Source: Candidatus Woesearchaeota archaeon (GTDB lineage Archaea > Nanobdellota > Nanobdellia > Woesearchaeales > JBJKQO01). From it: a stretch of DNA of 64,000 nucleotides. Below are positions 8,283 through 64,000 of this stretch, one piece after another (the first letter of the stretch is position 1; each line of letters opens with the position of its first letter). The stretch covers positions 591-64,590 of the forward strand of contig JBJKQO010000049.1 in assembly GCA_046705145.1 (NCBI GenBank), written 5' to 3'. Below the pieces are notes generated by a model. It was not told the DNA's origin and ran no database searches. It saw only the letters and a list, made by a program, of their open reading frames with translations. The position numbers and the translations under genes were made by a program.

Positions 8283-8284
8283 AA

Positions 8285-8426
8285 TGGGCCTGCCCGGACT
8301 CGAACCGGGGACCTCCGCCGTACTCAACAAAGCTTCGCTTAGTTGGTCGCCCAGCGAAGCTGTGCATGTGAAGGCGACGTCATCTGCAGCATACCCGAAA
8401 GTATGTAGCCACTAGACTACAGGCCC
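8285..8426 (-). tRNA. intron-containing tRNA, best model tRNA-Val(CAC) with two introns
   Basis: The reverse complement gives acceptor GGGCCTG/CAGGCCC with discriminator A, T-arm CCCGG-TTCGAGT-CCGGG and D-loop AGTGGCTA. The anticodon stem TCGCC/GGCGG is split by a 46-nt intron at 37/38 (genomic 8321..8366). That intron holds a 9-bp hairpin AGCTTCGCT/AGCGAAGCT. A second 23-nt insertion in the D-loop (8383..8405) forms the hairpin CATAC-TTTCGGG-GTATG. Removing both leaves a 73-nt cloverleaf with anticodon CAC (8368..8370). No CCA is encoded. An alternative reading is an Arg-TCG anticodon in the first hairpin. Confidence 0.55.
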
Positions 8427-13183: not shown

Positions 13184-13275
13184 TCTAAAAACACCCCTTT
13201 TTTTCTTGAAAATAATGATTTCTAGATTACCATCTCTTCTACACATGACTATATATAAAGCTTTCGAATATCCTA

Positions 13276-13494
13276 TCATGCAAACCGTATCTTTGTGAAA
13301 ATCAAAATGAGGTAGATAGCGATAAGTAGCAGGCTTATAGACACCGAAACGATTGAAACATAAAGGTAGGCTTTTGAGAAGCGATACTTCTTCTTTGAGC
13401 TGTACCTAAACAATAGGGAGCACGCTGTTCCCATAAGAAGATACGTTATTGATATTGTGATCAGGGAGTTCATCTTTTTACAGACCTCTAACAA
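13276..13494 (-). CDS. small hydrophobic membrane protein (hypothetical)
   Basis: Two predicted TM helices. The frame opens with TTG at 13494 and has an internal ATG at 13473. It abuts the next small ORF. Confidence 0.25.
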   Translation of the reverse strand: MLEVCKKMNSLITISITYLLMGTACSLLFRYSSKKKYRFSKAYLYVSIVSVSISLLLIAIYLILIFTKIRFA

Positions 13495-37300: not shown

Positions 37301-40300
37301 TGTCAACAACCATAGCTACATGATGCCAGCCTGTGCCGATGTTTACATTTGTATCGATCCATCGGATGCCTTCATACAGCATGATCAGGTTGTTGCCAGA
37401 ATCATCAAAAGTTGATGCGCCGACCCCTATACCAAAGCCGGTTGATGAATCTCCAATCTTGATGAATGCCCCATCTTCGCTTGCGGAATCCAGGTTAACC
37501 CATGCTGAAGCGCTCAGGTTTCCATTTGTGAGGTTGTATGTTGAAGAAATTGCAACAAGATCATTGCTGCCATCAAAGCTCAGGGCACCACCATACTTTC
37601 CAGAGCTGATGACCTGGGCGCTATATACTGTGCCATTGATCGCATGCATCGATGAATCATTTGCCCTAAATGGGCCTTTTGATGTATTTGAAAGAGTGAC
37701 CAACGAACCTGACACAGCCGTATGAGCAGCGCTTGTAAACGAGCCATTATTGTAGATGTTCTTTCTTGTTGTTCCGTTGCCATCTGTGATGCGTATGTTG
37801 TCCAGGTATCCAGTATACCGTCCAGACGTGTCAGATTCACATACGATATCATAGTACTGGATAGTCTTTCCAACATGAGTTGCAGGGATCGGAATCCTCC
37901 GGTGATACCACTGCTTTAATGCCCTAGATGAAAGCAGCGTATTTGGATGTGCATTAAGGCCATACTGGTCGTTTGCTGTTGACTCCCCCCTTAGTGCAGT
38001 CTCATCAGACGTCGTATAATCAAAAGCTATCTTAGCAGCCGAACTGTCCCAGAAAACATCATATTCAAGATAGTCTCCTGATTGAACAACATAATCAGAA
38101 ACACTTGTAAGATCATAGTACACATAGGAATTTCCGCTTGTTGACATGCTAAATGTTGCATTGATCGACTCTTCAGATGACAATCTGTCCATATCAAGCT
38201 TTAGCAGCAGTGATCTGTTATACAAAGTGAAATTTGTCCCGTTCCAATTATACTTTAAGCTCGCCAGATCAGGTTCAACTATCGTTGCGTTAATCTGCAC
38301 ATATCTTGCAGATTGTGATGAGGCATTTGCAGGCGTAGGAGACGCAAAAGTTATCCTTTGGGCACTTGTTACGCTTTGAGATGTTCCAGTATAATTTCCC
38401 TTAACATACACTGAAACATTGCCATAGTTATTATGATAGCTGTCAGAATTAAGATATGTTGCTTTTGTATCAAATGAAGAGTACCCTCCTGATTCTAAAG
38501 CACAATAATCCCCTGAGCAAGATGACTGACTTGCATATCCTAAAAAGAATGATTCTCCATCCAGCCCTTCATTAAATGACCTGCAGATGTCCAGATATAA
38601 TGTGGAATTGATCCTTCTCGAAATGTTGACGTACTGTTTTTCACAGGTTCTAATTTGAGCTCTCATTGAGGAATTTGTTAGATTTATTGAATAGTCAAAC
38701 CCATTCACATGATCAATAATTCTTATTGATGAGAACGATAGATTATCCCAGGATTTGTAAATTGTTGAGCTTGTTGGATCACTCGAATAGTTGATAGGGG
38801 TGTAATTATGGCTCCAGAAGTACTGTGGCTTAAACACCTGGGCATTTGTCTTTTTTGCAACAAGAGTCCATGGACCATCAGCTGAGGTCATATCACAATA
38901 AACGCTGAATTTGACAATTGGGCCTGAACCATCAGGATCGATCCAATACAATCCATCACCTGTAGAATTTCCGCTTGCAAGTATCTGTGCACAAGATACT
39001 GCAGGTACTTCAGACGACCCATAACCATTAGTAACTGTAACAAACCTTTTTTCTGTTGAATTCTGAAGATTACTTGTATCTTTTGCAAATACCTGGTATG
39101 AATAAGTGCCATCAGACAAACCGGTTGTTGCATTCTTGCTCTGGTTTACATACAAGTTCCAGTATGTTGAATTTATTTTTTGCAGGTTTGAAGCATACTG
39201 TTGGTATACTTCTGCTTTTGTAAGGCTCCTGTTCCACAAAGCAAACGAATCAACATCACCATGGAAAAAGTAATCACTGTCATCAATATCTGTCCCAAAC
39301 CTCACCACTCTGCTGTTAGATAAATCTGTAGCAGCCCATGATGAGCAATCAGTAATATTAGTAATATTTGCATCACGATAGTTTACACAATTGCCGTCCC
39401 TGTCAATAGTGATTGCCACAAAATGCCAATTGCTATCATCCAAATCTATGGTGGCAGTATATGGGCACGTTGCCCCATTACACATGCTTGGGTGGACTGT
39501 ATAGGATGGTGAGCCAAGCCAAAAACCCCATCCGGTATCCGCAGTATCAATAATCTTTTTTGTGACAAACCTTTGATACGTACCATCAAATCGCAGCCAA
39601 AATGTGAATGAGAAATCCTCATTTGCACCAATATCAAGACTATTGTGATCTGCGATATCAATGCGATCATCAACACCATCAAAGTTTAGAGTACGCCCAT
39701 AAACTCCCGTTTCATTCCATGCAGGACTGCCATATATTGTTGCATTGTTCCCATACAAGCTTATGTCTGCAGCATGAGTGCTACTCTCTCCCAAAGCAGA
39801 CACATTGTCAAAGTTTAGCATCAAGACCAATGATTTGTTGTACAATGTGAAATTTGTACCATTCCAATCATACTTTATTTCCTTAAGGTTTGATTCCGTT
39901 ATGCTAATATTTGTCCTTACGTATCTAGCTGATTGTGTTGTTGCATTTGTTGGTGTTGGAGAGAGATAGTGAAGTATCGGATGAATTATATCTGAACTAA
40001 TTGTCAGAACCCTTTTTTCCGTTGAATTTTGGAAATTGTTTGTATCTTTTGCAAATACCTGGTATGAATAAGTGCCATCAGACAAACTGGTCGTTGCATT
40101 CCTTGATTGGTTGACCCACATGTTCCAGTGTGTTGAGTTTATTTTTTGCAGGTTTGAAACATACTGCTGATAGACTTCTGCAGCTGTAAGGCTTCTGTTC
40201 CATATCCTTACTTCGTCAATCTTTCCATCAAAATACTCTCCACCAACATTCCCTTCCCCGATCCTTAAACCAACAGTAGCTGCATTTGGAACATAATTGT

Positions 40301-43300
40301 GACTCCAGTTCCCCACATTTATCCCATTAGCGTAAATGACCATTGTATTTGTAACCCTATTCATAGTAACAACAGCATGGACCCAGCTGCCTATAGGGAC
40401 TGCATAAGAAGACTGATGGGTCTGCCAGGTGCTCCCATCTCCTGTTCCAGCACTTAACTTTCCTGTATCTGAAATCCCCATGTGCCCCTGAGATTTTGCA
40501 GCAGAATCGTGATATATCAGTCCCTTCCACCCAGTCTGGTTTGAATCCCACCTAAACCAGAGAGAATACGAAAAGCTTTTACCTGCACCAAAAGACAGGC
40601 TAGAATCGTTACCGCAATCAATATGATCATTGTTTCCTGCAGTAAAATTATATGCTCCTCCATGTTTCCCATCAGATACATACACTGGGCAACTAGTGCA
40701 ATTTCCATGATTTGCATTTCTTGACGTATCGTTTAGCCTTGTCCAATCATCAAAATTTAGCATCAAGACCAATGAATCGTTGTACATGGTAAAGTTTGTT
40801 CCATTCCAGTTATACTTTATTTCCTTAAGGTTTGATTCTGTTATGCTGATATTTGGCCTTGCATATCTTGTTATTTGACTTGTCGCATTTGATGGTGTTG
40901 GAGATACGAAACTTATCTTTGGTGCTGGATCATATATAATCCATTCATAATTAGTAATATTTGCTTTCCATGCATGATAAGGGTATCCGTCATTTTGATC
41001 AATTTGGGTTGCACTTATGCTCCAAGAAGAGAATGTGCTTATGTTTTTCATGAGTTGTGTTGTTTTTGCAGTCGCTCCAGTTGCAGTATCCTGGTTGCTT
41101 GCACTACTATCAAAGAAATTGTTTTGTGCAGTATCGATATCATCTCCGCAGAATCCCTTATCTGTCGGAGCAGCTGCTCCAGCATAAAAGACACTCCCTA
41201 TACTATAAGAATTTTTTATCGTCGTGTACGTATTGTATCCTACAAACCCCCCAAATGTTGTGGCTGCTTCTCCTGTATTTCGCGTTACATTACCTAAGGA
41301 AAATGAATTATTTATTGTAGTTCCATAACAATATCCGACAAAACCCCCTGTGCTGGAATCACCAATGACATTTCCTGTGCTATAACAGTTCTCAACAACA
41401 CTTGTCCCTTCAGCATCAGTCGTCTCTCTCCAAAGCTGTCCGACAAAACCTCCCGCACGATAGCCTGTGGCGTAGACATCAACACTTGCATATGAGTTTT
41501 TGATATTTGTGATGTATGTAGCGCCAACAAGCCCTCCCATCTGTGAATAGCCTGTAGTACTTGCCTGTGTACTGTTTATGATACCGATCGCATAACAATT
41601 TTCGATCAAGCTATGGTTTGTAGGCCTGGCAACAAGCGCACCCACGCGGTACCTTGCAAGGATGCTGACATTTGTTAGTCCGACATTCCTTAATGTAGCA
41701 TTAGATATTGACCCAAACAACCCCTGGTTGTCCCCGGTAGACCTATTGATGAAAAGCCCATTGATCGTAAGGTTCCTTCCATCAAGATCCCCCTTAAAAG
41801 ATTGCGTTCCGTTCCCTATGGGGATAAACCCTTCTCCATGATTAAATGGGGATATGTTACAATTCACGCTGTTATTAAGAGCATAAAAATAGGTCAATGA
41901 CTCATTTATTGCCTGAAGATCTGAGCAGTCAGTTATCATGCAAGGATCATCCTGCGTTCCAGTTCCTTCCATATTCTCGGGACAATATGAAATTGTTATC
42001 TGCCTAACTTGTGTCGAGTTAGAGTTTACATTTGTGTCCTTTGCAAAGACCTGATATGTATATGTACCTTCACTTAGCCCTACTGTTGAGTTCATGCTCT
42101 GGTTGACATATAGGTTCCAGTGCGTCTGGTTTACCTTATTAAGGTTTGAAGCATATTGTTCATAGATCTCCTCTGATGACAAGGAACGGTTCCATACCCT
42201 AACTTCATCGATCGTGCCATTGAAATTATAACTGGTCCCATCACAACTAGACACACCAATCGTAAGATTCCTGACTGTATCATCAATAGGACCACAGGTA
42301 GAGATGTCGGTAGGGGTGCTATCTTCCTTTCCATCAATATATATCCTTAAGTAATTGCCGTCTTTCACACCGGTGATATGGTGCCATTTTCCATCGTTTA
42401 TGTGGGTCGATCCATGGACTTCAGGAGCACCACATCCAGTATCATCATCGATAATCAAAGCAGAAGATGAAGTCTCCTGTCGATAACCCCACAAGTTATA
42501 CCTTTTCCCTCCTCCACCACAACTGCCTTTAGATATGATCAAATTATACCCTGATGAGACCGTGGTATTTATCCAAGCTGAGACCGTAAAATCATGACTT
42601 CCCATGTTAAAGCTGCTGTCATTACCACAATTGATATAGTCATCATCACCATCAAATTCAAAGGCCCCGCCAAATTTGCCTAAAGATTTCCATACCGGGC
42701 CATTAACTGTACCATCATTTCCTTCCCTACCCAAATCAACAACATAAGTACCATCCTCACCTAATTCGGAAACATTGTCAAAATTCATCATCAGCACAAG
42801 AGAATCATTATATATCGTGAAGTTAGTGCCGTTCCAGTTAAACTTCAACTCTTTTAGGTTAGGCTCAGATATAGACACGTTTATCCTGACAAACCGATTT
42901 GACTGGACACTGTTGTTTGACGGGGTAGGTGAAAGATACTCCAGGTCAGATGTCGAGTAATCATCGCCTACTGACAGGAACCTTTTTCCAGTAGTGTTAG
43001 ACCCGCCAAGAGAGTCGGCCGCAAATGCTGAGTAGCTGTAAAGCCCGTTTGAGAGTCCCAATGTAGCATTCCTGCTCTGGTTGATGTAAAAGTTCCATGT
43101 GTCTGGACCGGTCCTTCCCAGGTTTGATGCGTACATCTCATATATCTCCTGATTCGAAAGGCTGCGGTTCCATATTGAAAACTCGTCTATCCTGCCTATG
43201 AAATATTTCATCTGCGCATCCATCGCATATCCGATAAACGCAGTTCTTGCCCAAGTAAAATCTGACGCTTTTCTTGACCCGTTTGCAACACTGATACCAT

Positions 43301-45089
43301 CAACAAAGATGCTTTGTCCAGTAAAATTGTCCATCCTCTGCACAACATAGTGCCATCTGTTATCAGCATAGTTTTTTCCAGTCGTGCAAATTGTCTGGTC
43401 ATTCCATACGCGCTGGCATATGTTTCCTGAATTGTTAAGATAGATCAGCCTGTCAAACCCTATGTAGTCTAATGTGAATATACTGCAATTAGTGCAGTTA
43501 GTGTTTATCCACATGCCTATCGTGAAGTTTGTAACCATCCTGCTGAAATTAAGATTTTTAGAGTTGTTGACAGTTATCCTGTCATTCCCATCAAAATAGA
43601 ACGCCCCTCCGTACTTTCCGTTTGAAACCCATGAAGGATCAGATCCAGGAGATGAGTTTCCAAGAGTGCCATTGTTCTGCTTAAGGCTTATGTCTTTTAG
43701 GCAGCCTTTCTGGCCTCTTGTCGTGCATTCTGACAGGGAAGACACATTGTCAAAATTAAGCCTGCAGACAAGAGAAATGTTATATATCGTGTAATTTGTG
43801 CCGTTCCAGTTGAACCTGAACTGTGAAAGGCTTGAAGCATTGACAGACACATTGATAATTGCATAGTTATTGTAAGTGATTGCCTTATGGGAAAGTGTAG
43901 GTTGCCTGAAAGATATCTGGTACACCTGTGTCGAAAGGTGAGGAACGACCCACATTATCCTTTCTATAAGCCCGTCATCATCCTTATCCACCACAGTAAA
44001 ACTTACAGGAACAAGAGTGTTGTTCTCAATGTGATAAAGCATTATATCCACTGCAGGAACACCAGGCACGTCTGAATAAGCTTGTATGCTTGTGTAATGG
44101 ACGCCCGAAGATATCGTCACTTTCTTACCCCCAGGCACATCTTCCTCGTATGACTCAGGCCCTTGAGTGTAATACTCGATCTCAAGCTCTCTAAACCCAT
44201 CTTCGACTATTATCTGCTTAATGCTCTCACCAGCGCTTTTTCCCTCCTCCTTTTTTTGGACGATCTCCCTTGTGTTCACTGCCCTTTCTGATCCGTCGAT
44301 CATCGTGATAGAATAGTTTATGGCTCCAGCAAGGCTTATCTGCGTGCCATTGACCAATGTCTGTGACCTAACTGTCTTTTTCCAGGCAACAGGCTGGTTT
44401 ATCACTGCAATGCCCTGCTCATCATATTCAGAAAGTGAAGTTATGTTTACCTGTCTGGAAACATCTGAATCATTTATGCCTGTACTGTTCTCCCCTATGT
44501 CAGTTACGTTTTCAGCCACTCCCTCAATATCTGAAGAACTGACATTACTCTCTTCTGGCTGATCTAGGCCGGAATCTTCATTTTTTCCCACGATGATCCT
44601 AATGTCTCCTGAGACGCTTTTGTTTGAATGAAAAGCATATACTGTAAGCATATATTCGCCTGATATGTTTGATGAGAACAAAAGATCATTGCGCTTGACT
44701 TCTACAACAGAGTTTTCAGGCTGCGTGCTGATGAACGTACACCCTTCTTTTGAAACAAGGCTGTCAAGGTCTATCTCAATCTCATGTTCGGTCTCAAAAG
44801 TATCCTTTTCAGGTTGCCAAAGAAGATCTTGTATAAGATCAGGAGGGTTTTTTGTCTCGCTGTCGTTATCTTCATTTATACTAAGGCTGATATTGCTAAA
44901 GTTGCTATTGCCATAACCTATGCCGATCCTGCCAGCCTCATATAGGTTTTCAGGAATGCTTTTGTTCCAATCTTTTACAGTCATGTTGTCTTCGATGACT
45001 GCCAAGACTCCTTTGGCTATGAAAAACGATACCACAAGCAGGACTATCAAGCTAGCCCTGACATCCAACCTACCCCTTTTTTGTTTCAT
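22329..45089 (-). CDS. giant (7586 aa) type-I membrane surface protein with repeated LamG-like, beta-helix (NosD/CASH-like), beta-sandwich and glycine-rich modules and a cytoplasmic Nudix-like tail
   Basis: Single uninterrupted ORF. The N-terminus is a signal/anchor MKQKRGRLDVRASLIVLLVVSFFIAKGVLA. At least five LamG-type modules are present, with the motifs FDGxDDxI...WIN and IDEVRxWNRSLSxxEIYEQYASNL. Two parallel beta-helix modules end in C(D/N)DPY...DYLPLA. Three roughly 330-aa paralogous modules are present (VYPQ...CDWE...TPFYTNKS...). A stretch of about 150 aa is rich in Gly. NxS/T sequons are extremely frequent throughout. The C-terminal region has a TM helix FLGFWYVWIILLMIVMALILFY (about 23034..23099), then a Pro/Lys-rich linker and a Nudix-like domain. 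The stop is TAG. Confidence 0.8.
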   Translation of the reverse strand: MKQKRGRLDVRASLIVLLVVSFFIAKGVLAVIEDNMTVKDWNKSIPENLYEAGRIGIGYGNSNFSNISLSINEDNDSETKNPPDLIQDLLWQPEKDTFETEHEIEIDLDSLVSKEGCTFISTQPENSVVEVKRNDLLFSSNISGEYMLTVYAFHSNKSVSGDIRIIVGKNEDSGLDQPEESNVSSSDIEGVAENVTDIGENSTGINDSDVSRQVNITSLSEYDEQGIAVINQPVAWKKTVRSQTLVNGTQISLAGAINYSITMIDGSERAVNTREIVQKKEEGKSAGESIKQIIVEDGFRELEIEYYTQGPESYEEDVPGGKKVTISSGVHYTSIQAYSDVPGVPAVDIMLYHIENNTLVPVSFTVVDKDDDGLIERIMWVVPHLSTQVYQISFRQPTLSHKAITYNNYAIINVSVNASSLSQFRFNWNGTNYTIYNISLVCRLNFDNVSSLSECTTRGQKGCLKDISLKQNNGTLGNSSPGSDPSWVSNGKYGGAFYFDGNDRITVNNSKNLNFSRMVTNFTIGMWINTNCTNCSIFTLDYIGFDRLIYLNNSGNICQRVWNDQTICTTGKNYADNRWHYVVQRMDNFTGQSIFVDGISVANGSRKASDFTWARTAFIGYAMDAQMKYFIGRIDEFSIWNRSLSNQEIYEMYASNLGRTGPDTWNFYINQSRNATLGLSNGLYSYSAFAADSLGGSNTTGKRFLSVGDDYSTSDLEYLSPTPSNNSVQSNRFVRINVSISEPNLKELKFNWNGTNFTIYNDSLVLMMNFDNVSELGEDGTYVVDLGREGNDGTVNGPVWKSLGKFGGAFEFDGDDDYINCGNDSSFNMGSHDFTVSAWINTTVSSGYNLIISKGSCGGGGKRYNLWGYRQETSSSALIIDDDTGCGAPEVHGSTHINDGKWHHITGVKDGNYLRIYIDGKEDSTPTDISTCGPIDDTVRNLTIGVSSCDGTSYNFNGTIDEVRVWNRSLSSEEIYEQYASNLNKVNQTHWNLYVNQSMNSTVGLSEGTYTYQVFAKDTNVNSNSTQVRQITISYCPENMEGTGTQDDPCMITDCSDLQAINESLTYFYALNNSVNCNISPFNHGEGFIPIGNGTQSFKGDLDGRNLTINGLFINRSTGDNQGLFGSISNATLRNVGLTNVSILARYRVGALVARPTNHSLIENCYAIGIINSTQASTTGYSQMGGLVGATYITNIKNSYASVDVYATGYRAGGFVGQLWRETTDAEGTSVVENCYSTGNVIGDSSTGGFVGYCYGTTINNSFSLGNVTRNTGEAATTFGGFVGYNTYTTIKNSYSIGSVFYAGAAAPTDKGFCGDDIDTAQNNFFDSSASNQDTATGATAKTTQLMKNISTFSSWSISATQIDQNDGYPYHAWKANITNYEWIIYDPAPKISFVSPTPSNATSQITRYARPNISITESNLKEIKYNWNGTNFTMYNDSLVLMLNFDDWTRLNDTSRNANHGNCTSCPVYVSDGKHGGAYNFTAGNNDHIDCGNDSSLSFGAGKSFSYSLWFRWDSNQTGWKGLIYHDSAAKSQGHMGISDTGKLSAGTGDGSTWQTHQSSYAVPIGSWVHAVVTMNRVTNTMVIYANGINVGNWSHNYVPNAATVGLRIGEGNVGGEYFDGKIDEVRIWNRSLTAAEVYQQYVSNLQKINSTHWNMWVNQSRNATTSLSDGTYSYQVFAKDTNNFQNSTEKRVLTISSDIIHPILHYLSPTPTNATTQSARYVRTNISITESNLKEIKYDWNGTNFTLYNKSLVLMLNFDNVSALGESSTHAADISLYGNNATIYGSPAWNETGVYGRTLNFDGVDDRIDIADHNSLDIGANEDFSFTFWLRFDGTYQRFVTKKIIDTADTGWGFWLGSPSYTVHPSMCNGATCPYTATIDLDDSNWHFVAITIDRDGNCVNYRDANITNITDCSSWAATDLSNSRVVRFGTDIDDSDYFFHGDVDSFALWNRSLTKAEVYQQYASNLQKINSTYWNLYVNQSKNATTGLSDGTYSYQVFAKDTSNLQNSTEKRFVTVTNGYGSSEVPAVSCAQILASGNSTGDGLYWIDPDGSGPIVKFSVYCDMTSADGPWTLVAKKTNAQVFKPQYFWSHNYTPINYSSDPTSSTIYKSWDNLSFSSIRIIDHVNGFDYSINLTNSSMRAQIRTCEKQYVNISRRINSTLYLDICRSFNEGLDGESFFLGYASQSSCSGDYCALESGGYSSFDTKATYLNSDSYHNNYGNVSVYVKGNYTGTSQSVTSAQRITFASPTPANASSQSARYVQINATIVEPDLASLKYNWNGTNFTLYNRSLLLKLDMDRLSSEESINATFSMSTSGNSYVYYDLTSVSDYVVQSGDYLEYDVFWDSSAAKIAFDYTTSDETALRGESTANDQYGLNAHPNTLLSSRALKQWYHRRIPIPATHVGKTIQYYDIVCESDTSGRYTGYLDNIRITDGNGTTRKNIYNNGSFTSAAHTAVSGSLVTLSNTSKGPFRANDSSMHAINGTVYSAQVISSGKYGGALSFDGSNDLVAISSTYNLTNGNLSASAWVNLDSASEDGAFIKIGDSSTGFGIGVGASTFDDSGNNLIMLYEGIRWIDTNVNIGTGWHHVAMVVDKDGEPSGYIDGKKVYSDTLNSDGLVPKGNVTYIGGYAARYVDSYIDEVMIWNRSLTKTEVYEIYATDIKRKNQTHWTLWANQSKNSTASLSEASYDYQIFAKDSLNNQNKSEKRYVTISLADACVNLDDTSTFGTKIRNNSLGYFVNSNITLCTRTYNKTKTVLMANSSNIIIDCDGSMISGALKPSTKGISATLPKVTIQNCVFYRTYTGVYSSAGSTTVLNNSFVQNNRGYECYSCQNSSVKENYFASSQDSNIYASDGKYNNFTNNTIRLAKAYDIYFTGKSQGNRIYDNLINSSASKPIKLPSSQNLWNRTSSAGQNIVGGQYMGGNFYANILGTGYSQKCADSDLDSICDDPYMVFNANNYDYLPLAITSGMDHVPPSVTIVSPSNNTFVNGNVSVYVSATDNTGIKNVVYRVKNSTISNVTICNESSSPYSCTWHTRDYADSSEGYDLSATAYDYAGNTASYLVHFTIDRSIPYSKDVQAVYPPGRSSVRDGQRFSLKVNVSDSEDVGAGINTTEVSLVYLNSSGNVTMVLGSGSRTTGHWSLWNTSLTTSLATSGYSYAPLYVYDNATPLNNIRSSDRFFVYLDNTAPTYANMTNTDAYDDEQVYLTLNAFDDHLLDRVILSTNFSGTWVNETAQTLSYNAYPVSFAKTATSGILSYKFFIFDEAGNSNETAVGSFSTMGPRPQFTVVQISPEENSVFSSASANLTFKYYNGEGVNCSLFIDNILNFTIQNPLNMTVLNFTRPIADGTYSWYVSCFDNITNSSSATSARGFTVDLSAPVVSILYPSETTYASLISDLSFNYAENNPYDCYYSLDGGITNTSIPQCKNLSEVSYSQGHNNLTLYVKDLFGNVGSDSVNFTLDSSYGSWNLNMTNLTEYMPSPAIFYFNITFSDAHPGMYIFSWYNMSEWVNDSAQPYLDNVPASVTKNVTVPTGTINWTWYYNDSFGHRNKTPTWSKTLTYRPVGLGLRVVYPQGNINVTQFGFFNVTLNVTCLNQDCGTVNVSLDPSSQRSVVVWELGDAADYSSGSYAAAQQVATSMGITFNTTASGNSATPPVYSHPFWTKDIIVTSAYTYNYPSGFNYSAISTAFSGGKTIIMDRTYFNQLKTDYGFTDVNYTTSFPCLYTPYILDYMCHPNGGMAISDFSGYQGCDWEGACAVTVGNGFAQLINTSPCASIKSGTVSIEAGTTPFYTNKSRNPYNISLNNGQSQLVTFYVNATGNIGSTHLFNAYANLTSDTDISNMTSFWNVTISDLVSPSWSQNLTNLTVATAPGQSAYFNITISERNPGKYVFSWYNGSVWRNDSAVSYTDGQKVKVNKTIKGRMINWTWYINDSYGNRVKTDVWSKSLYYQYGLGLQLIYPSGSITVDRMQYFNVTMNITCLYLDCGKINVTLDPAVGTAYNFTTCSATGTAGPSQTSCNTAYSGKTLSGQVTVTSGIQRWTVPQTGTYRITAAGAKGDNGDYRTAGYGAKVSGTFILQKGEIINILVGQVPSGNDEGGGGGGGTYVIKNGPDGTPDDVSDILVIAGGGGGAAGNNPYSNGNGGIAARTASTTGTAGNGGAADSGYSNERGAGGGGFTGDGSSISGTNGGKSFVNGGAGGSSYGGFGGGGSLYSDGAGGGGGYSGGNGNDQGGGYGGSSYNSGTYQINTSGANNAAGFVNIMLLSSSKSIISTVSNATPFATNKSRNPYNISLTSRQSQVVMFHVNATGDINSTYEFFAFVNMTTNMSVNNRTIRWNVTIADLTAPSWSGNKTNLTNGTGAGSRVYFNVTVTERSPSHYIFSWYNGSVWRNDSAQRYNDSRSISVVKTINSNNVTVNWTWYINDTSKNWVKTDVWSKRVFAVYALSLKRVYPLSDIDVERLSFFNVTVNVTCLYKDCGQVNVSLDPYTNYKVAVWETGDSGDYNNGAKAVGQQLGTSIGAVLNTSVSGYSSTTPKYSNGFWNNNILILSGSLNYPSGYNYSAISTAFRAGQILIVKRSYFNQLKSVYNLTELHYNSTFNCLRNPYELDYICDNSGGMAITDDSNYMGCDWEHGCAASVGNAFAQLLNTSPCSAVSVKGGLIRTIAGTTPFYTNKSANPHNLTLSSGQSGIITFFVNATGPLDHSYEFYAYSNITGHMSVGNITSHWNVTIKDMTDPAISFGETTTSAGKRPMQTYVIANITASDAYLDKVRVYLYNSTGLVNMTTHTSGAYLRYNDLKAGVYYINATANDTSGNNATLSSRMINLTEPTIRITRVYPQTNIDAPQKRWFNVTVNVTCMYEDCGNVSVSLDPYSNYKIAVWETGDSGDYNNGAKAVGQQVATSIGATLNTSASGYSYTTPVSSNGFWKNNILILSGSVNYPSGYNYSAVSGAFAAGKVLIIKRSYLNQLKTDYGLTEMHYNTSFPCLRTPYELDYICHGSGGIAITDDDSYMGCDWEHGCAVSIGNGFAQLLNSSPCSAVSSKGGLVSTTVGATPFFTNKSANPYIVSLNKSNSTIVTFFVNATGSVGGVYEFYAYATVDAGENITNQTTRWNVTITDINPPTINYGQKTTSSGNLSQSYIRVNVTADDNNFDNITIYLYNASGLKNHTSTTQKKYYVQFNDLPAGTYRINATAFDTSDNAESVTTRIITLDTSSPAISIVSPADLFNATSSSVNFTFSITDNSTNNCSVYIDQEGSVSYLPRSTNSSSRSGSTITLNVSGIAQRRNMWYIRCVDAAGNSNTTTPRRLTVDTSAPLISFDTPTENQSTGYLVYIRTTVSDSLLSVDDSWYYILNTSNRTQVLFQGKLNYTGSWDSAWDTTAHNDVMWNVTLVVYANDTLGNMANDNVSFYLDNVKPVIQLITPPKKELFYSSNFTMDMVAQDASLNYTYYNITNSSGDRVQHNSSIYATSTSRHAWQDIVGVSVLPDGIYNITVFAEDTAKNNRTESARFYVDANAPKMTLNDPEAGAYLSSSSVVFNWTAKDNVSAWMGCNISVGAATRTLTCGNSSPCNVTFSSFQSQTYNFTVYCRDNASNVALISSNITVDLVLPKIGYAALTSTAGNISQDYIYVLLNLSESNNRNTTIKLYDSSGSLAGSAFTTQRSVSSFASNFTSLADGLYTVNASINDSAGHFNKTLSRAIYLDTTNPVARLYANDSLIEYKAEGIYVNWTANDSNLRSRMVNITSEFGPSVFSSQLVSGSVVLSPANFSNVGNYTISVYAEDNAGNSNSTYFAFTVNDTLYPTLTMTGSVSGNISGDFIFVNVSTSDHNLRSANVYLYFGSSLINQSITAFSPNTINFTSLADGLYHYNASACDEYKCNRSQVRYVLLDDTIPKIEFGEKTSNFEARSQDYIFVNASGTETNTDLIRISIFNSSNELVNTTTSSSFPLTINFTSLKDDTYYINASVNDTSKNYNRTSIRTLILDAVYPRWESNATNMSASTVVGDYVYFNLTIIEKNPDLYIFSFYNGSSWENDTAQTYQNGTVISASKRITASTISYMWFFNDTTGNRNQTPPYSFTVDDSSPSAAITINDSDAEYGYDSVMVNWSASDANLGAVTFNITYPGGAVLFSASSALGSINLSPENISVKGRYNISLLALDLAGNFRSSSSAITVNDTIYPAINFSSHTTGEGNRTQYWISINVTASDHNLTNITIFMYNSTGTYARESSVSSPYFVNYSSLPLGRYYINATACDGSGNCNSTETRSVLVLTSSPSVSLNLPRQGYYNDTSVPPTITFNCSAADPDTLTNISLFITDRRNLSLKLNQTTNISNVSNSSSWQISLYKGNYTWNCLSNDIYYHAGWGENRTIMINYTAASTGRITGCEEVTQKGSYSLEGNITTSEDGTCITVSADDVDIDCDGKYIIASGSLPDIGIKVQKSDSGIRNITIRNCSIYNFNENGVYMSSANSSRLVNVTVNGSNTGVQSYGGRMNSYHGLRITSERTSLQLGSESRSNVTGSNFTGGLVSGLFVRDSSYIFADKLSIRDFGGGGYYEYEASGIHASRSKDIKITDSNLTSCFVGFWVEYSNSTNLTRARSDNNLIGAYYIDSKRSAVASSSLCSDVYGFASVTSGDIILRNSTVKDSAEVGIYIDDYQGSSGTVKVYDNLLNNSYNVYLDAISRFNTSYSSGINIMGQSYIGGNYWTNPTATGYSDTCKDANGDRICNDPYLVGRFGGTDYYDHLPLAVRDMTSPTLEFYSPRNNSYVNGNVTLRTVPSDDSGGISHVLFEYKNSSVGFTQICNTTSSPYDCSWDVSSLSDGAGYTIRATAFDASLNNASRIMNYTIDKSMPYARDLRVIYPENQTSARNSQPVMITLEAKDSQDSGAGLNHTLIELAHLNNTQGNTTMWLVLGSKVTGSWSQWNISVVIDNETGIKNVTLHVLDNATPSNNVRSSETAYVRIDNILPYYSGIKNKTPVFNNENFSVVLNMFDNYKLKGYIFSTNMSGSWSNDSFVNLSSSRASIRAVKNATSGNHSFRFYIYDDAGNVNVTRDYDFRIYPDQSYVTDTDGDGVYDNEDNLNWNLENVSGEGASGLNIRVDGSSDLSSYDGRRQVVFYNSTDTIMNFTHNFSASKLDLANITINLSANYLIVNMSGQLSTNKSLYIKDNNFVALCVKDAPIIRISNMTSSCTGPNETDFSSCLGNSSIVHKNGLVCEDLGTRIKVSNLRHSAMRGTPATPASAPVTTIASSPSGGAGSIPIRCGDGICLGMYGETCSSCPEDCGECEIVKGGGNISEEKPEEGTSVEETQKDRSNDEIPLPEEKEGGLGEYGKSFLGFWYVWIILLMIVMALILFYRKTKEEKKPPKDQDTALPKVKEEKPEGDIPPKYRYVPPTPTPPAKKEMSQKKAEIDYDEIKMRQSREKRIAKELSKPTDDDANGPAPFSIYSGQIHEGHSIPEITYVLLFNSKGELALQKTLSSEEDGPAITAFREKVRPGESPKETALRKIKKSIGISPMLFFFSKDIYSSKDGPDKVLIAYKAIITERQEAGVRFPADVSFYSLKDIMVMVDEGQNFNPELKLILEKLIRSR
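29300..34300 (-). repeat. intragenic tandem-like repeats (three roughly 1.1-kb paralogous modules plus a glycine-rich spacer) inside the giant gene
   Basis: The DNA blocks 29941..30105, 31081..31245 and 33721..33885 align at about 75-80% identity (for example ...aagaagctgggcaaa...cttacagcgca...). They correspond to the repeated protein modules. Confidence 0.6.
38150..43850 (-). repeat. five dispersed repeats of the module boundary encoding SPTPxN...NLKExKxNWNGTNFTxYNxSLVLxxNFD, followed by LamG-like domains
   Basis: Similar DNA segments occur near 38200, 39800, 40780, 42800 and 43750 (for example gtgaaatttgtaccattccaatcatactttatttccttaaggtttgattc...). Confidence 0.55.
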
Positions 45090-60448: not shown

Positions 60449-60564
60449 GTCGCCATCAATCTGTGAGCTTTCTCACTTTTATATCCGGCCCGTCGCGGGG
60501 GGATGCCCCATCCGGGGACGCAGGGCCTTAACAAATCAAGGCACAAGCGAACCAGATGGCGACC
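60449..60564. ncRNA. candidate structured RNA / leader element containing copy 2 of the GC-rich 33-nt repeat
   Basis: Closed by a 10-bp helix, ggtcgccatc (60449..60458) with gatggcgacc (60555..60564). Internal hairpins include gtgag-cttt-ctcac and ggccc...gggcc around the repeat. About 60% GC versus a window average below 40%. It lies between the AbrB-like gene and the 856-aa gene, and no plausible ORF spans it. Confidence 0.35.
60491..60523 (+). repeat. GC-rich 33-nt element, copy 2 (cgtcgcggggggatgccccatccggggacgcag)
   Basis: 32 of 33 bases identical to 21..53, in the same orientation, 60470 bp apart. Confidence 0.6.
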
Positions 60565-60657
60565 TCGCGAAGCGAAGTTTTGCCTCATTGACTATGAGCT
60601 GGCAGGGAAGGCTTTTTGGGGTGGACGATCCCTGCCAGCATTGTGGTATGTTCGGAT

Positions 60658-60824
60658 TATTTTTTTCTGACTTTTTTGATCACAACCTCTCCTTTTTCGT
60701 TAAGCTTAAACTCAAGCCTGGTCCCTTGCTTAAACCCTAAAGCTTCAGCTAGCGCTTTTGGGATCGTGACCACATACTGGTCGTTCACAGTCTTTTGGAC
60801 CTTTCTTGTGCTTGCCATATCCAT
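60658..60824 (-). CDS. AbrB/MazE/SpoVT-family small DNA-binding protein
   Basis: 55 aa, MDMASTRKVQKTVNDQYVVTIPKALAEALGFKQGTRLEFKLNEKGEVVIKKVRKK. The swapped-hairpin signature VVTIPK...G.K.G is present. It is shorter than the ORF-track cutoff. It sits upstream and co-oriented with the element at 60449..60564 and the two large secreted-protein genes. Confidence 0.5.
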
Positions 60825-60990
60825 CAAATTTTAATATTAAAAATAATATTAAAATAGACTATAAAAAGCTTTTGGAAAAAATTACACTATACTGCAAAAA
60901 ACAGGCAGTATTAACTACCCTCTTAAGATGAGAAACGTTTTTATACCTTAAAAAATTGTCTCAACACACTAATCTTAGAGGTGGTTTTTT

Positions 60991-62268
60991 ATGAAGAAAA
61001 AAGTATTAGCACTTATCGTGCTCTTTCTTGCTGTGATACTCTCTTTTAGCGTCGCAGCAGCAAAGCCGCAGGCAGTGGGGCTTAAGGCTTGCGCAGACGG
61101 CATAGACAACGACGGCGACGGCTACACAGACCTTGATGATCCAGGATGCTCATCAAAAAAAGATACAAGCGAACTTAACCCTGAAATAGAATGTGATGAT
61201 GGGACTGATAATGATGGCGACGGCTACACAGACTCTGCAGATACAGGATGCACAGGGCCAACAGACACAGATGAGACAGACTGCGGAGACACAGCCTGCG
61301 AAGGAGGAGAAACACAATACACCTGCCCGCAGGACTGCGGCTATCCAGATTCCTGTTCAGATACAGATGGAGGCAATGTGGTATCTGTCTTCGGCACAGC
61401 ATCAGGCTATTACAACAACGCACCATATTCCAACAGCGATGCCTGCGTAGACCCATCAAATATTGTGGAGTATTACTGCAACGGCGTTTATGAGACAAGC
61501 CAACAGCAATCATGCGGAACAGACAGCTACGGCCCATCTTACTGCTCTGCAGATAACATATACTAGAACCTGACAGACTACTTCTGTTCTACGGGAACAT
61601 GTGCAGCATCAACAGCACCAGTCCTACAGGTCCAGTGCAACAGCTTTGACGGTTATGGGGAACAATACTGCTCAGGCGACACAGTCTATAAAGATTATGA
61701 AGATTATTTCTGTTCGCAAGGAAGCTGCGATTATATCTCAACTCCTGAAACTGTTGAAGATTGTGATGCTTCTGATGGTTATGGTTCGCTTTATTGTTCT
61801 GGAGATGAGGTGTATAAGGATTATACTGATGGCTTTTGTTCAGGAGGCGCCTGTGACACATCAGTCACTCCAGAGTTCCAGGAAGACTGCGACAGCTATG
61901 ACAGCTATGGAGATAACTACTGCATCAACTCAACTGTATTTAGGAACTATAATGACTACTCATGCAGCAGCGGAGCATGCAGCTACACGCCTATAATGCA
62001 ATTTGTAGAAGAATGTGCGAACGGATGCACAGACGGATCCTGTGACCTGGTAGCTGACTCCTGTAGCGAAACAGACGCAGGGTTTGATCCAAATAGTGCA
62101 GGAACAGCTTCAGGATACCTAAACGAGGTATTCTACAGCATGTCAGACTACTGCCTTGACAACAACATACTGAGAGAATATTATTGTTCTGGAACAAGTG
62201 CAGACAGTACGCAAGTGCCGTGCAGCTTCTTTAACGCAACAATGTGCGTGTCAGGAGAGTGCATATAG
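60991..62268 (+). pseudogene. secreted Cys-rich protein with MopE-like (DNDGDGYTD) and DYxCSxGxC repeats, interrupted by an in-frame TAG
   Basis: ORFs 60991..61566 and 61810..62268 are in the same frame. The 243 nt between them contain no further stop and continue the repeat pattern (...YCSADNIY*NLTDYFCSTGTC... versus ...YCSGDTVYKDYEDYFCSQGSC...). The TAG at 61564..61566 occupies a position held by Lys (AAG) in the paralogous repeats. Signal peptide MKKKVLALIVLFLAVILSFSVAAA. Confidence 0.55.
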
Positions 62269-62341
62269 TTATAGTACAATTTATTTTTTTTATTTTTTTC
62301 TAAACAATAATCTTATATCCTCGCTTTCTTTCTTGTTTGTC

Positions 62342-62776
62342 ATGCAACAGGATCATGTCCGGGAAGCGATCGAAGAAGAGATAAAAGCCCATCCTTTCTA
62401 TTCCATAGGTTGCATCATATCAGTCCATGAAACCCCTAGTTATGTGAGGGTAACTTTTACAAAAGGGGAACTTTCAGATCGTGTGCTGCAAGGACAGGAA
62501 GAAGAGATCATACAAACTTTCAGAGATGATCCTGAGACAGATTTTCCTGCAACAGGATTCATCCTTTATTTTGATAATTTGAAACAAGAAGTAAGCGGAC
62601 TTTTTTGCGTCAGCCCACCCCACCAAAAAAAAGGTCATGCAAAAGAGCTTGTCACTATGATGGAAGCGATCGCAAAAAACGTTTTAGGTTACAGATCAAT
62701 AAGGGTATTAGATCCCCATATTCCTCTTTTTAGTTCTATGGGATACACGATTGAGAACATGGTTGCAACAAAATAG
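62342..62776 (+). CDS. GNAT-family N-acetyltransferase
   Basis: The acetyl-CoA binding region LFCVSPPHQKKGHAKELVTMMEAIAKNVLGYRSIRV fits the V/I-x-x-x-x-Q/R-x-x-G-x-G/A pattern. The start MQQDHVREAIEEE is at 62342; upstream ORF sequence is AT-rich promoter. Confidence 0.5.
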   Translation: MQQDHVREAIEEEIKAHPFYSIGCIISVHETPSYVRVTFTKGELSDRVLQGQEEEIIQTFRDDPETDFPATGFILYFDNLKQEVSGLFCVSPPHQKKGHAKELVTMMEAIAKNVLGYRSIRVLDPHIPLFSSMGYTIENMVATK

Positions 62777-62783
62777 CGTACCT

Positions 62784-64000
62784 CTAACCCAGCTTGCTCA
62801 CATAGCCCCTTCTTGGCTCGTATATGTCTCCGCCGCGCCTGAGCCTTTCGATGACAGTCTCGACCTCGTCCTCATCCATGCCTTTCTCCTTTGCAAGCTT
62901 GCTTATCTCTTCTATGGGTATCATCTTTCCAAGCTTGTTCTCAAGCTCAGTTATTATCTCTTTTATCACAGAGATCTTTCCGCGCTGTGACGCAGTTATA
63001 CCTGTCGCGATCTTGTCTATGTCAATCGTTCCTGTCTCCTCATCAAACGCTATCTGCCTGAGGCAGTAGTTGAGAAGCTCGATAGCTCTTTTTGCATCCC
63101 TTCGCCTTATCATCTTGGCAAGCCTGACCTTTGCAACTGCCTCAGTGATCCTTACAAGGCCCTCAAGCTGCCTTGTCGAGATAGGGATGCTTTTAACGCC
63201 TTCACCAGTCCCCTTGGACCTCATGGTAAGATAATAGTTCTTAAGCTCAGACATTGCCTCATCAGAAAGCTTTGGCTTGCAATGGGTCTTGGCATAAGCG
63301 ATATACTTCCTAAGAAATTCCGTGCTTACCTCCATCTCTCCGACAAAAGGGTTCTGGTGCAGCTTAAGGATGAACTCTGCCATCATGTCATCCTTCTTCT
63401 CATCAGGAAGATCCTTTATAGGAAATATCAGGTCGAACCTGTTGATAAGGGTAGGAGGAAGATCTATCTGCCTTGCTATGACATCGTTAGGGTCAAACCT
63501 TCCGTACTTTGGGTTTGCTGCAGCAAGAACAGTTGTCTGTGAATGAAGTGTTGCCTGGATATTCGCTTTTGATATAGTGACACTCTGCTGCTCAAGAGCC
63601 TCGTGCATCGCGCTCCTGTCTTCCTTGCTCATCTTATCAAGCTCATCTATCATGCACATGCCCTTGTTTGCCAGGACCAATGCACCTGCTTCAAGGCTCC
63701 AACCCTGAAGAAAATCATCCTTGACCACCGAAGCAGTATTGTGGACCAGCACGCCATCAACAACAAAATTGTGAGAGTCTTCAACAGTTAGGTCATAGAC
63801 AAAACTGTAACCGGGAACCTTTTCTTTTATTGAAACAACCTTTTCCCAAAATATATCGCTTTTTGCAATCTTTTTGATTTCTTCACATCCCTCTTCTTTT
63901 GGGATAAGATCAAGCAGCTTTTTTAAGGCTTCATTTGACAGGTTCTTATGCCAGCCTGCTTTTTTCAAAGGCACCTTATTCTTTTGCATAAGGCCTTTTA
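62784..64000 (-). CDS. mcm: MCM replicative helicase, 3' part only (gene continues beyond the window), containing an intein
   Basis: The extein part carries TASVVKDDFLQGWSLEAGALVLANKGMCMIDELDKM (Walker B), the sensor/arginine finger region NRFDLIF and a C-terminal wH. The frame is open to the window edge at 64000. Confidence 0.8.
   Translation of the reverse strand, partial: KGLMQKNKVPLKKAGWHKNLSNEALKKLLDLIPKEEGCEEIKKIAKSDIFWEKVVSIKEKVPGYSFVYDLTVEDSHNFVVDGVLVHNTASVVKDDFLQGWSLEAGALVLANKGMCMIDELDKMSKEDRSAMHEALEQQSVTISKANIQATLHSQTTVLAAANPKYGRFDPNDVIARQIDLPPTLINRFDLIFPIKDLPDEKKDDMMAEFILKLHQNPFVGEMEVSTEFLRKYIAYAKTHCKPKLSDEAMSELKNYYLTMRSKGTGEGVKSIPISTRQLEGLVRITEAVAKVRLAKMIRRRDAKRAIELLNYCLRQIAFDEETGTIDIDKIATGITASQRGKISVIKEIITELENKLGKMIPIEEISKLAKEKGMDEDEVETVIERLRRGGDIYEPRRGYVSKLG
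63738..64000 (-). other. intein (C-terminal portion) inserted in MCM
   Basis: ...GYSFVYDLTVEDSHNFVVDGVLVHN immediately followed by the extein residue T. This matches the intein C-terminal block (penultimate His, terminal Asn, +1 Thr). Upstream intein sequence (KIAKSDIFWEKVVSIKEK...) continues past the window end. Confidence 0.6.

What the first reader, a model, noticed from the sequence alone, without database searches (positions are those of the whole stretch)
60991..62268. In-frame amber codon splits a repeat-rich Cys-rich secreted protein gene at a conserved Lys position
The frame of 60991..61566 continues without further stops through 61567..61809 into ORF 61810..62268. The repeat unit Y-C-S-G-D-x-V-Y-K-D-Y-x-D-Y-F-C-S-x-G-x-C continues seamlessly across the TAG. 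The TAG aligns with AAG (Lys) of the other repeats, a single-base change. TAG serves as a normal stop for at least two other genes here (Lrp regulator, giant protein), so codon reassignment is unlikely. It looks like a recent nonsense mutation, a population polymorphism or an on/off switch in a surface protein. The N-terminal MopE-like DNDGDGYTD repeats match those on the M4 peptidase at 15579..18980.
Basis: seen in the sequence. Interest (0 to 1): 0.55.

Follow-up and report, generated by a model that had tools for sequence, protein, structure and literature searches.

The report
Nonsense-interrupted secreted protein gene, DPANN archaeon
One gene for a secreted, cysteine-rich repeat protein of a small DPANN-type archaeon has been cut in two by a single premature TAG stop codon, most likely a recent ordinary nonsense mutation and not a recoding signal or a switch.

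Summary
The core observation holds. ORF 60991..61566 ends at TAG 61564-61566. The same frame stays open for 233 more codons, to TAG 62266-62268. The joined 425-aa product matches uninterrupted DPANN archaeal proteins end to end (372 homologues).

The TAG lies inside the first of four 42-aa, four-cysteine repeat units. It splits 36 cysteines into 13 and 23.

In relatives this position is K (39), R (28), H (7) or Q (6) of 88, so it is not a strictly conserved Lys. The two closest full-length relatives have Gln (CAG, CAA). A C-to-T change in CAG is therefore as likely an origin as A-to-T in AAG.

TAG ends 10 of 33 genes in the window, including PEP synthase, GlmS-like, MCM and AsnC/Lrp genes. No other gene is bridged when TAG is read as sense. 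No structure, Rfam family, suppressor tRNA, simple repeat, template repeat or internal promoter accompanies the codon.

The downstream part keeps every family-invariant residue, so the lesion is young.

An independent Logan assembly carries the same TAG. Read-level polymorphism could not be checked.

Verdict: an ordinary recent nonsense mutation, annotated as two fragment genes. Low interest.

The parts
60938..60945 (+). Archaeal TATA-box-like element (TTTTTATA) about 46 nt upstream of the ATG; presumed promoter of the whole gene
   Evidence: Read from the sequence. Similar TTTAWATA elements precede many other genes in the window. Function is inferred, not shown.
60978..60984 (+). Shine-Dalgarno-like GAGGTGG, 6 nt before the start codon
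   Evidence: Comparable GGTG/GAGG motifs precede several other genes in the window.
60991..61566 (+). 5' fragment of the gene (191 codons plus TAG): signal/anchor peptide, two acidic double-disulfide repeats, a CGDxxCEGGE module, the first 'A' domain, and the first 14 residues of repeat unit 1. Annotated as a separate 191-aa protein.
   Evidence: 113 of 120 relatives have an N-terminal hydrophobic segment.
61084..61269 (+). Two acidic double-disulfide repeats (C-x-DG-x-DNDGDGYTD...GC)
   Evidence: NCBIfam NF033662, E = 1.1e-12, two stretches. Internal DNA repeat 61096-61167 versus 61198-61269, 72% identical. Pfam MopE does not hit.
61564..61566 (+). Premature in-frame TAG, codon 192 and position 15 of repeat unit 1
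   Evidence: Relatives have K/R/H/Q here; the closest have CAG or CAA. The same base appears in Logan contig SRR31309759_11721.
61522..62025 (+). Four tandem 42-aa repeat units with four Cys each (starts 61522, 61648, 61774, 61900)
   Evidence: Units are 33-67% identical in protein and 41-58% in DNA. Predicted as beta-strand meanders; the model of 61774..62265 has pLDDT 95.6.
61567..62268 (+). 3' remainder of the same gene (233 codons plus the final TAG), open and homologous to the C-terminal two thirds of family members. The sub-part 61810..62268 is annotated as a separate 152-aa protein starting at GTG.
62053..62265 (+). Second 'A' domain (DSCSETD...GTASGY...EYYCSG...C), the C-terminal module of the family
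   Evidence: 75 of 120 relatives have two such domains. pLDDT above 90.
62280..62299 (+). T-rich run (TTTATTTTTTTTATTTTTTT) after the final stop; likely the archaeal transcription terminator. No such run follows the internal TAG.
   Evidence: Function is inferred.

Best explanation
Window 60991..62268 is one gene of a DPANN-type archaeon. It encodes a 425-residue secreted or surface protein rich in disulfides. Its layout is: signal peptide, two acidic double-disulfide repeats, a CGDxxCEGGE module, an 'A' domain, four 42-aa four-Cys repeat units, and a second 'A' domain. A single base substitution turned codon 192 into TAG. The ancestral codon was most likely CAG (Gln, C-to-T) or AAG (Lys, A-to-T). 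Translation from the only promoter and ribosome-binding site now stops after residue 191. The product is a truncated protein with 13 cysteines, an odd number, and a broken first repeat unit. The remaining 233 codons are transcribed but probably not translated. The lesion is young, because nothing downstream has decayed. Gene callers report the two halves as separate proteins of 191 aa and 152 aa, and these are annotation fragments. Shown: single-gene continuity, TAG being a normal stop in this window, and the absence of recoding, switch or restart signals. Inferred: the direction of the mutation, the loss of function, and whether the allele is fixed in the population.
For: Single gene:
- The read-through product aligns over 100% of its length with uninterrupted proteins from Woesearchaeota, Aenigmatarchaeota, Nanoarchaeota and Pacearchaeota MAGs. 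There are 372 hits, for example P0002 at E = 1.6e-150.
- All 88 relatives in which the first unit could be located have a sense codon at the site.
- The shortest listed relative is 244 aa, and 113 of 120 have an N-terminal hydrophobic segment. Nothing resembles a stand-alone 152-aa C-terminal piece.

The stop cuts inside a module:
- It falls after the first of the four Cys of unit 1, splitting 36 Cys into 13 and 23. The GTG-started piece would have 15.

TAG is a real stop here:
- It ends 10 of 33 genes, including PEP synthase, GlmS-like, sugar nucleotidyltransferase, MCM, CBS, GNAT and AsnC/Lrp genes. Their Pfam matches reach the profile ends.
- PEP synthase aligns to within 7 residues of its C-terminus with a homologue.
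- Reading TAG as sense joins two substantial coding segments only at this gene.

No recoding apparatus in view:
- No CUA tRNA is present. The only tRNA candidate in the window has anticodon CAC.
- There is no Rfam match.
- The 120 nt around and after the TAG fold no better than shuffled sequence (z = 0.26).

One transcription unit:
- TATA and SD elements lie only before 60991, and a T-run lies only after 62268. There is no TATA-like element before GTG 61810.

Young lesion:
- All 20 family-invariant columns downstream are intact.
- The ratio of C-part to N-part identity to relatives is 0.77, inside the 0.67-0.88 range of intact homologues.

Real base:
- An independent Logan assembly of SRR31309759 is 100% identical over 2967 bp, including the TAG.

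Precedent:
- Another family member, in a Pacearchaeota MAG (L017), carries an in-frame TAA at a different site, replacing a conserved Glu.
Against: - No read-level data were available. The TAG could be one allele of a mixed population, or less likely a consensus error shared by two assemblies of the same reads.
- The perfect preservation of 233 downstream codons would also be expected if some read-through or restart keeps them under selection.
- A GGAG lies 6 nt upstream of GTG 61810, so internal initiation cannot be excluded.
- The rest of the genome (tRNAs, pyl genes) could not be inspected.
- No orthologue closer than about 52% overall identity exists in the searched collections, so the ancestral codon is inferred and not observed.
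Confidence: 0.78

Rival explanations
1. Population polymorphism or assembly or consensus artefact. The organism's functional allele has a sense codon (CAG or AAG) at 61564-61566, and the TAG is a minority variant, a strain-specific allele picked by the assembler, or an error.
For: The window comes from a metagenome-assembled contig (NCBI contig of 68,586 bp). The gene is otherwise perfectly intact. Only one sample carries the locus, so fixation is unproven.
Against: Two assemblies, the NCBI MAG and the Logan contig, agree base for base over 2967 bp, and the Logan contig does not break at the site. None of the seven possible one-step sense-codon versions of the 425-aa protein is present among about 15 billion proteins. 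No near-identical full-length hit appeared either. No other gene in the 64-kb window shows a comparable lesion, which argues against poor consensus quality.
Confidence: 0.12
2. Translational read-through of the TAG, by a suppressor or pyrrolysine tRNA or by leaky termination. The gene would yield a short 191-aa form and a full-length 425-aa form.
For: The downstream frame is intact and all conserved residues are preserved. The rest of the genome could not be searched for tRNA-CUA or pyl genes.
Against: TAG is the stop of 10 of 33 genes, including conserved housekeeping genes. This is the only in-frame TAG in a coding frame in the window. Relatives have ordinary K/R/H/Q codons here and never TAG. 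There is no PYLIS-like or other Rfam element and no unusual structure. No CUA tRNA is in the window. A literature search on DPANN together with stop-codon recoding returned papers on Asgard archaea and CPR bacteria only.
Confidence: 0.04
3. Two genuine genes: a 191-aa secreted protein and an independently expressed 152-aa protein starting at GTG 61810, as currently annotated.
For: Gene callers emit both (L001 gene table). A GGAG lies 6 nt upstream of GTG 61810.
Against: There is no TATA-like element and no terminator between the parts. The 243 nt between the TAG and the GTG are in-frame family sequence, namely units 1-3. The GTG falls in the middle of unit 3. The downstream piece would lack a signal peptide and carry 15 Cys. 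No relative has either architecture.
Confidence: 0.03
4. A regulated or high-frequency on/off switch of a surface protein, either phase variation or diversity-generating retroelement (DGR) mutagenesis of an AAG codon.
For: The gene encodes a variable, repeat-containing surface-type protein. A-to-T at AAG is the kind of change DGRs make, and DGRs are reported in DPANN lineages (from general knowledge, not tested here).
Against: There is no simple-sequence tract at or near the site. The repeat units are too diverged for recombination: 41-58% nucleotide identity, with shared runs of at most 9 nt. No template-repeat-like copy of any part of the gene exists in the 64-kb window. No reverse transcriptase domain was found among the 30 window ORFs scanned against Pfam; four larger ORFs were not scanned.
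Confidence: 0.03

Closest known systems
Nonsense-mutation pseudogenes, or 'split genes', in prokaryotic genome and MAG annotation
   Same: A single premature stop in an otherwise intact ORF. Gene callers emit two adjacent same-frame fragments (191 aa and 152 aa). Relatives are uninterrupted. A second family member with an in-frame TAA exists in another MAG.
   Different: Nothing essential differs. The lesion is unusually young, with no secondary damage, and fixation in the population is unproven.
Pyrrolysine-encoding in-frame amber codons (methylamine methyltransferase genes mtmB/mtbB/mttB of Methanosarcina and relatives)
   Same: An in-frame TAG inside a continuous, conserved coding sequence in an archaeon.
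   Different: TAG is a frequent true stop here (10 of 33 genes). Homologues carry K/R/H/Q codons at the site and not a conserved TAG. The protein is an extracellular Cys-rich repeat protein, not a methyltransferase. No PYLIS-like element or CUA tRNA was seen.
NCBIfam NF033662, acidic double-disulfide repeat-containing proteins (and the similar-looking Pfam PF11617 MopE metal-binding motif)
   Same: The two N-terminal C-x-DG-x-DNDGDG-x-x-D...GC repeats score above the NF033662 cutoff (47.5 versus 41 bits).
   Different: The model covers only residues of about 32-90. The rest of the protein has no Pfam or NCBIfam model and no PDB or BFVD structural neighbour. Pfam MopE does not hit it, although it hits the M4 peptidase at 15579..18980.
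Phase-variable (contingency) surface protein genes and DGR target genes
   Same: A surface-type, repeat-containing, fast-evolving gene that is switched off by a small sequence change.
   Different: No homopolymer or short tandem tract, no invertible element, and no template repeat or reverse transcriptase in the window. A point nonsense mutation is not a reversible switch.

Membership tests
Unnamed DPANN secreted Cys-rich repeat protein family (homologues P0001-P0120) | End-to-end sequence homology with family members | tested here: met
   372 hits. P0002 has E = 1.6e-150, 51% identity and 100% coverage. Alignment A1 has 40 invariant columns, all kept by this gene.
Unnamed DPANN secreted Cys-rich repeat protein family (homologues P0001-P0120) | N-terminal signal/anchor segment, acidic repeats, CGDxxCEGGE motif, 'A' domain(s) and 42-aa four-Cys units | tested here: met
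   All modules are present in 60991..62268. The same architecture is seen in most of 120 relatives.
Unnamed DPANN secreted Cys-rich repeat protein family (homologues P0001-P0120) | Uninterrupted reading frame | tested here: not met
   TAG at 61564-61566. It is therefore a disrupted member. One other disrupted member, L017, was found among 68 related genomic loci.
NCBIfam NF033662 acidic double-disulfide repeat | Score above the curated cutoff | tested here: met
   47.5 bits against a cutoff of 41, two stretches, residues 32-56 the best.
   No hit even at E up to 10. The M4 peptidase does hit (E = 8.9e-16). BLASTP between the two proteins gives E = 0.39.
Pyrrolysine-containing protein gene | In-frame TAG conserved at the same position in orthologues | tested here: not met
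   88 of 88 relatives have sense codons (K39, R28, H7, Q6 and others).
Pyrrolysine-containing protein gene | TAG rare or avoided as a stop codon in the genome | tested here: not met
   TAG ends 10 of 33 genes in the window, at the C-termini expected from homology.
Pyrrolysine-containing protein gene | pylT (tRNA-CUA) and pylS/pylBCD in the genome | not testable with these tools
   Only the 64-kb window is available. It has no CUA tRNA, and no pyl-type Pfam domains were seen among the 30 scanned ORFs. The MAG is not in the searchable genome collection.
Phase-variable contingency locus | Simple-sequence repeat or invertible element that causes the frame or stop change | tested here: not met
   TRF finds only trivial 9-14 nt arrays away from the TAG. 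The lesion is a base substitution.
DGR variable-repeat target | Template repeat and reverse transcriptase nearby | tested here: not met
   No second copy of any gene segment lies outside the gene in the window. No RT domain was found in the 30 scanned ORFs; four larger ORFs were not scanned. About 4.5 kb of the source contig and the rest of the genome were not visible.
Two independent genes | Own promoter, ribosome-binding site and start for the downstream part, at a domain boundary | tested here: not met
   No TATA-like element precedes 61810. The GTG lies inside unit 3. Only a weak GGAG is present. Cys counts are odd.

The most novel reading that the evidence does not exclude
The TAG is tolerated because a fraction of ribosomes read through it, by near-cognate or suppressor decoding. 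One DPANN surface-protein gene would then make both a short 191-aa secreted form and the full 425-aa form. This would explain why the 233 downstream codons are flawless. A variant of this reading is that the TAG was written by adenine-directed DGR mutagenesis of an AAG codon, with the retroelement lying outside the window.
Probability: 0.04. Interest if true: 0.6.

Novelty: new member of a known kind. Interest (0 to 1): 0.15.

Why it matters
The practical point is about annotation. The two database proteins (191 aa and 152 aa) are fragments of one disrupted gene and should be flagged as a pseudogene or truncated allele. They should not be counted as two families or as evidence of amber recoding in DPANN archaea.

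A secondary point concerns the parent family. It is widespread in DPANN lineages. Beyond the N-terminal repeats it has no Pfam or NCBIfam model. Its fold is predicted with very high confidence (pLDDT 95.6) but has no PDB or BFVD neighbour. It is therefore a reasonable target for anyone studying how these episymbiotic archaea build their surfaces. Turnover of such genes by nonsense mutations, seen here and in L017, fits the expectation of fast-evolving, dispensable surface paralogues.

Tried and rejected
- Codon reassignment or Pyl was rejected on stop-codon usage (10 of 33 genes end in TAG), on the uniqueness of the in-frame TAG, and on sense codons at the site in all relatives.
- Read-through-stimulating RNA: the fold z-score is 0.26, and Rfam gave nothing meaningful at E up to 10.
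- Suppressor tRNA: default ARAGORN and Rfam find no tRNA in the window. The one intron-containing tRNA I found by eye, at c[8284..8426], resolves to anticodon CAC.
- Repeat-mediated switching or DGR: no SSR, diverged units, no template copy, no RT in the scanned ORFs.
- Search for a sense-codon allele: a 27-nt pattern with NNN at the codon found nothing in genome contigs or metagenome contigs. Exact look-up of the seven one-step sense variants found none. The flanking GNAT gene occurs only on the same Logan contig, and the exact MazE product is not on record at all.
- Function by structure: the full-length model (pLDDT 76) and the C-terminal model (pLDDT 95.6) have no match in PDB or BFVD. All hits have E above 0.004 and TM below 0.25.
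- Function by literature: two full-text searches returned nothing relevant to this family or to amber recoding in DPANN.
- Bacterial promoter and terminator scan: not informative for an archaeon, so I used manual TATA, SD and T-run inspection instead.
- MopE kinship with the M4 peptidase: not supported by models or by BLASTP.

Full report
**Observation**

The ORF that starts at ATG 60991 ends at TAG 61564-61566. The same reading frame then continues without any stop to TAG 62266-62268. From the base composition of the window, 233 codons stay open by chance with probability about 1.9e-6. The continuity is therefore not accidental.

The translated read-through has 425 residues. It contains four tandem protein-level repeats of 42 residues, each with four cysteines. 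They start at 61522, 61648, 61774 and 61900, and the TAG is codon 15 of the first unit. The equivalent codons in the other units are AAA (Lys), AAG (Lys) and AGG (Arg).

**One gene, not two**

A search of 5.8 billion proteins with the read-through sequence returned 372 homologues. Those that carry a source name are annotated as Woesearchaeota, Aenigmarchaeota, Nanoarchaeota or Pacearchaeota archaea. Several cover 100% of the query as single uninterrupted proteins. Examples are P0002 (384 aa, 51% identity, E = 1.6e-150), P0009, P0012, P0013 and P0014.

In 68 related loci from species-representative genomes the family is again found across DPANN lineages. Of 120 relatives:
- 113 have an N-terminal hydrophobic segment;
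- most have about two acidic repeats, one CGDxxCEGGE motif, two 'A' domains and one to six units;
- the shortest is 244 aa.

Nothing resembles the 191-aa or 152-aa pieces that NCBI and Logan gene calls list for this locus.

The stop falls after the first of the four cysteines of unit 1. It divides 36 cysteines into 13 and 23, and a product starting at GTG 61810 would have 15. These odd numbers are what a break inside a disulfide-bonded module would give.

**Signals**

A TATA-like TTTTTATA (60938-60945) and a GAGGTGG Shine-Dalgarno motif (60978-60984) precede ATG 60991. A 20-nt T-rich run follows the final stop (62280-62299). After the internal TAG there is no T-run. The 60 nt before GTG 61810 hold no TATA-like element, only a GGAG 6 nt upstream. 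The GTG itself lies in the middle of unit 3. The anatomy is that of one transcription unit.

**TAG is a normal stop in this organism**

In the window TAG ends 10 of 33 genes, against 13 for TGA and 10 for TAA. These genes include PEP synthase, a GlmS-like amidotransferase, a sugar nucleotidyltransferase, a CBS protein, a GNAT, MCM, a PLP enzyme, the AsnC/Lrp-type regulator and the 7586-aa giant ORF. Their Pfam matches run to the ends of the profiles. PEP synthase aligns with a Nanoarchaeota homologue to within 7 residues of its own C-terminus and 5 of the homologue's.

When only TAA and TGA are treated as stops, the one place where two substantial coding segments fuse in a real coding frame is this gene (196 + 234 codons). 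Every other case is a 4-18-codon tail or an antisense shadow frame.

**No recoding apparatus is visible**

- Default ARAGORN and Rfam find no tRNA in the window.
- I noticed one unannotated tRNA gene with two introns at c[8284..8426]. After in-silico splicing it gives a cloverleaf with anticodon CAC (Val), not CUA.
- The 120 nt around and after the TAG fold no better than shuffled sequence (z = 0.26).
- Rfam at E up to 10 gives only noise.
- A full-text search for DPANN with stop-codon recoding returned only Asgard and CPR papers.

**What stood at the site before**

In 88 relatives where the first unit could be located, the residue is K (39), R (28), H (7), Q (6) or other (8). This is a basic or polar position, not a strictly conserved Lys.

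The two closest full-length relatives have Gln:
- P0001 reads TAT CAG AAT TTA ACA GAT TAC TTT TGC (Y-Q-N-L-T-D-Y-F-C). The window reads TAC TAG AAC CTG ACA GAC TAC TTC TGT.
- P0002 has CAA.

The ancestral codon cannot be observed, because no orthologue closer than about 52% overall identity (72-74% in the N-terminal part) exists in the collections.

**Age of the lesion**

All 20 family-invariant columns downstream of the stop are intact in this gene. The ratio of C-part to N-part identity to relatives is 0.77. For intact homologues compared with each other it is 0.80 on average, with a range of 0.67-0.88. The untranslated part therefore shows no excess divergence. Either the mutation is recent or the downstream part is still expressed in some way.

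**Reality of the base**

A Logan assembly of run SRR31309759 (contig _11721, 2967 bp) is 100% identical to window 60490..63456, TAG included, and it does not break at the site. It may derive from the same reads as the MAG, so it rules out an assembler-specific error but not a polymorphism. I looked for a sense allele in four ways:
- a 27-nt pattern with NNN at the codon, in the genome and metagenome collections;
- exact look-up of the seven one-step sense variants of the 425-aa protein;
- a look-up of the flanking GNAT gene, which occurs only on the same Logan contig;
- a look-up of the flanking MazE gene, whose exact product is not on record at all.

No sense allele was found. Read pile-ups remain the decisive missing test.

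**Switch hypotheses**

- There is no simple-sequence tract at the site.
- The four units are old and diverged: 41-58% nucleotide identity, with longest shared runs of 7-9 nt.
- No other copy of any segment of the gene exists in the window that could serve as a DGR template.
- No reverse transcriptase domain appears among the 30 window ORFs scanned against Pfam; four larger ORFs were not scanned.

A point nonsense mutation is not a reversible switch. An independent precedent for plain decay in this family is L017, from a Pacearchaeota MAG. There an in-frame TAA replaces the conserved Glu of D-E-T-D-C-G-D-G.

**What the protein is**

- The N-terminal C-x-DG-x-DNDGDGYTD...GC repeats match NCBIfam NF033662, the acidic double-disulfide repeat (47.5 bits, cutoff 41). 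They do not match Pfam MopE.
- The M4 peptidase at 15579..18980 matches MopE but not NF033662. BLASTP between the two proteins is not significant (E = 0.39).
- The rest of the protein has no Pfam or NCBIfam model.
- AlphaFold2 models are confident: pLDDT 76 for the whole chain and 95.6 for residues 262-425. They show all-beta meanders.
- Foldseek finds no neighbour in PDB or BFVD. All hits have E above 0.004 and TM below 0.25.

By inference from the signal peptide, the even cysteine count and the acidic Ca-binding-like repeats, the intact protein is an extracellular or surface protein stabilised by disulfides. Its ligand or role is unknown.

**Verdict**

My corrections are these:
- the site is not a strictly conserved Lys;
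- the ancestral codon may have been CAG;
- the MopE link to the peptidase is weak;
- there is no evidence for a switch.

My confidence in the nonsense-mutation model is about 0.78. The main residual alternative is an unfixed polymorphism or consensus artefact (about 0.12). Read-through, two genuine genes, and switch mechanisms each stand at about 0.03-0.04. As biology it is ordinary. Its value lies in correcting an annotation and in pointing to an uncharacterised DPANN surface-protein family.

Noticed in passing
window 8284..8426 (minus strand): An unannotated tRNA gene with two introns. It is missed by default ARAGORN and by Rfam at both thresholds. Removing about 23 nt after the D-loop and about 45-46 nt after anticodon-loop position 37 gives a 74-75-nt cloverleaf with anticodon CAC (Val). 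Exact splice points were not determined.
   Followed up: partly
L017 555..557 (JAFCCX010000038.1, Candidatus Pacearchaeota archaeon Meg19_1012_Bin_180): A homologue of the same family carries an in-frame TAA where relatives have the Glu of D-E-T-D-C-G-D-G. This is a second, independent nonsense-disrupted member.
   Followed up: partly
window 61774..62265 (+), and the family P0001-P0120: The repeat-unit plus 'A'-domain part is predicted with very high confidence (pLDDT 95.6, all-beta). It has no structural neighbour in PDB or BFVD and no Pfam model. It is a widespread but uncharacterised DPANN extracellular module.
   Followed up: partly
window 62784..63989 (minus strand, runs off the window end): The MCM helicase gene carries the C-terminal splicing region of an intein just before the P-loop domain continues (Pfam Intein_splicing, residues 31-84 of the visible part).
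   Followed up: no
window 22329..45089 (minus strand): A giant 7586-aa ORF ending in TAG. Its last 999 residues have no significant NCBIfam match. Together with the neighbouring 856-aa and 1164-aa ORFs that have no Pfam hits, it suggests a block of large surface-type proteins.
   Followed up: no
window 10760..13279 (minus strand): The PEP synthase ORF as listed starts 32 codons upstream of the Met where homologues begin (alignment starts at residue 33). The true start is probably the internal ATG.
   Followed up: no
window 9217..10188 (+): The AsnC/Lrp-type regulator is 323 aa with two HTH_24/HTH_AsnC stretches. It looks like a tandem-duplicated or fused Lrp-like protein rather than the usual protein of about 150 aa.
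   Followed up: no
L002 524..3325 (JGI Ga0366829_1066368): Two family members (588 aa and 305 aa; P0001 and P0030) lie in tandem on one contig, so the family expands by local duplication.
   Followed up: no
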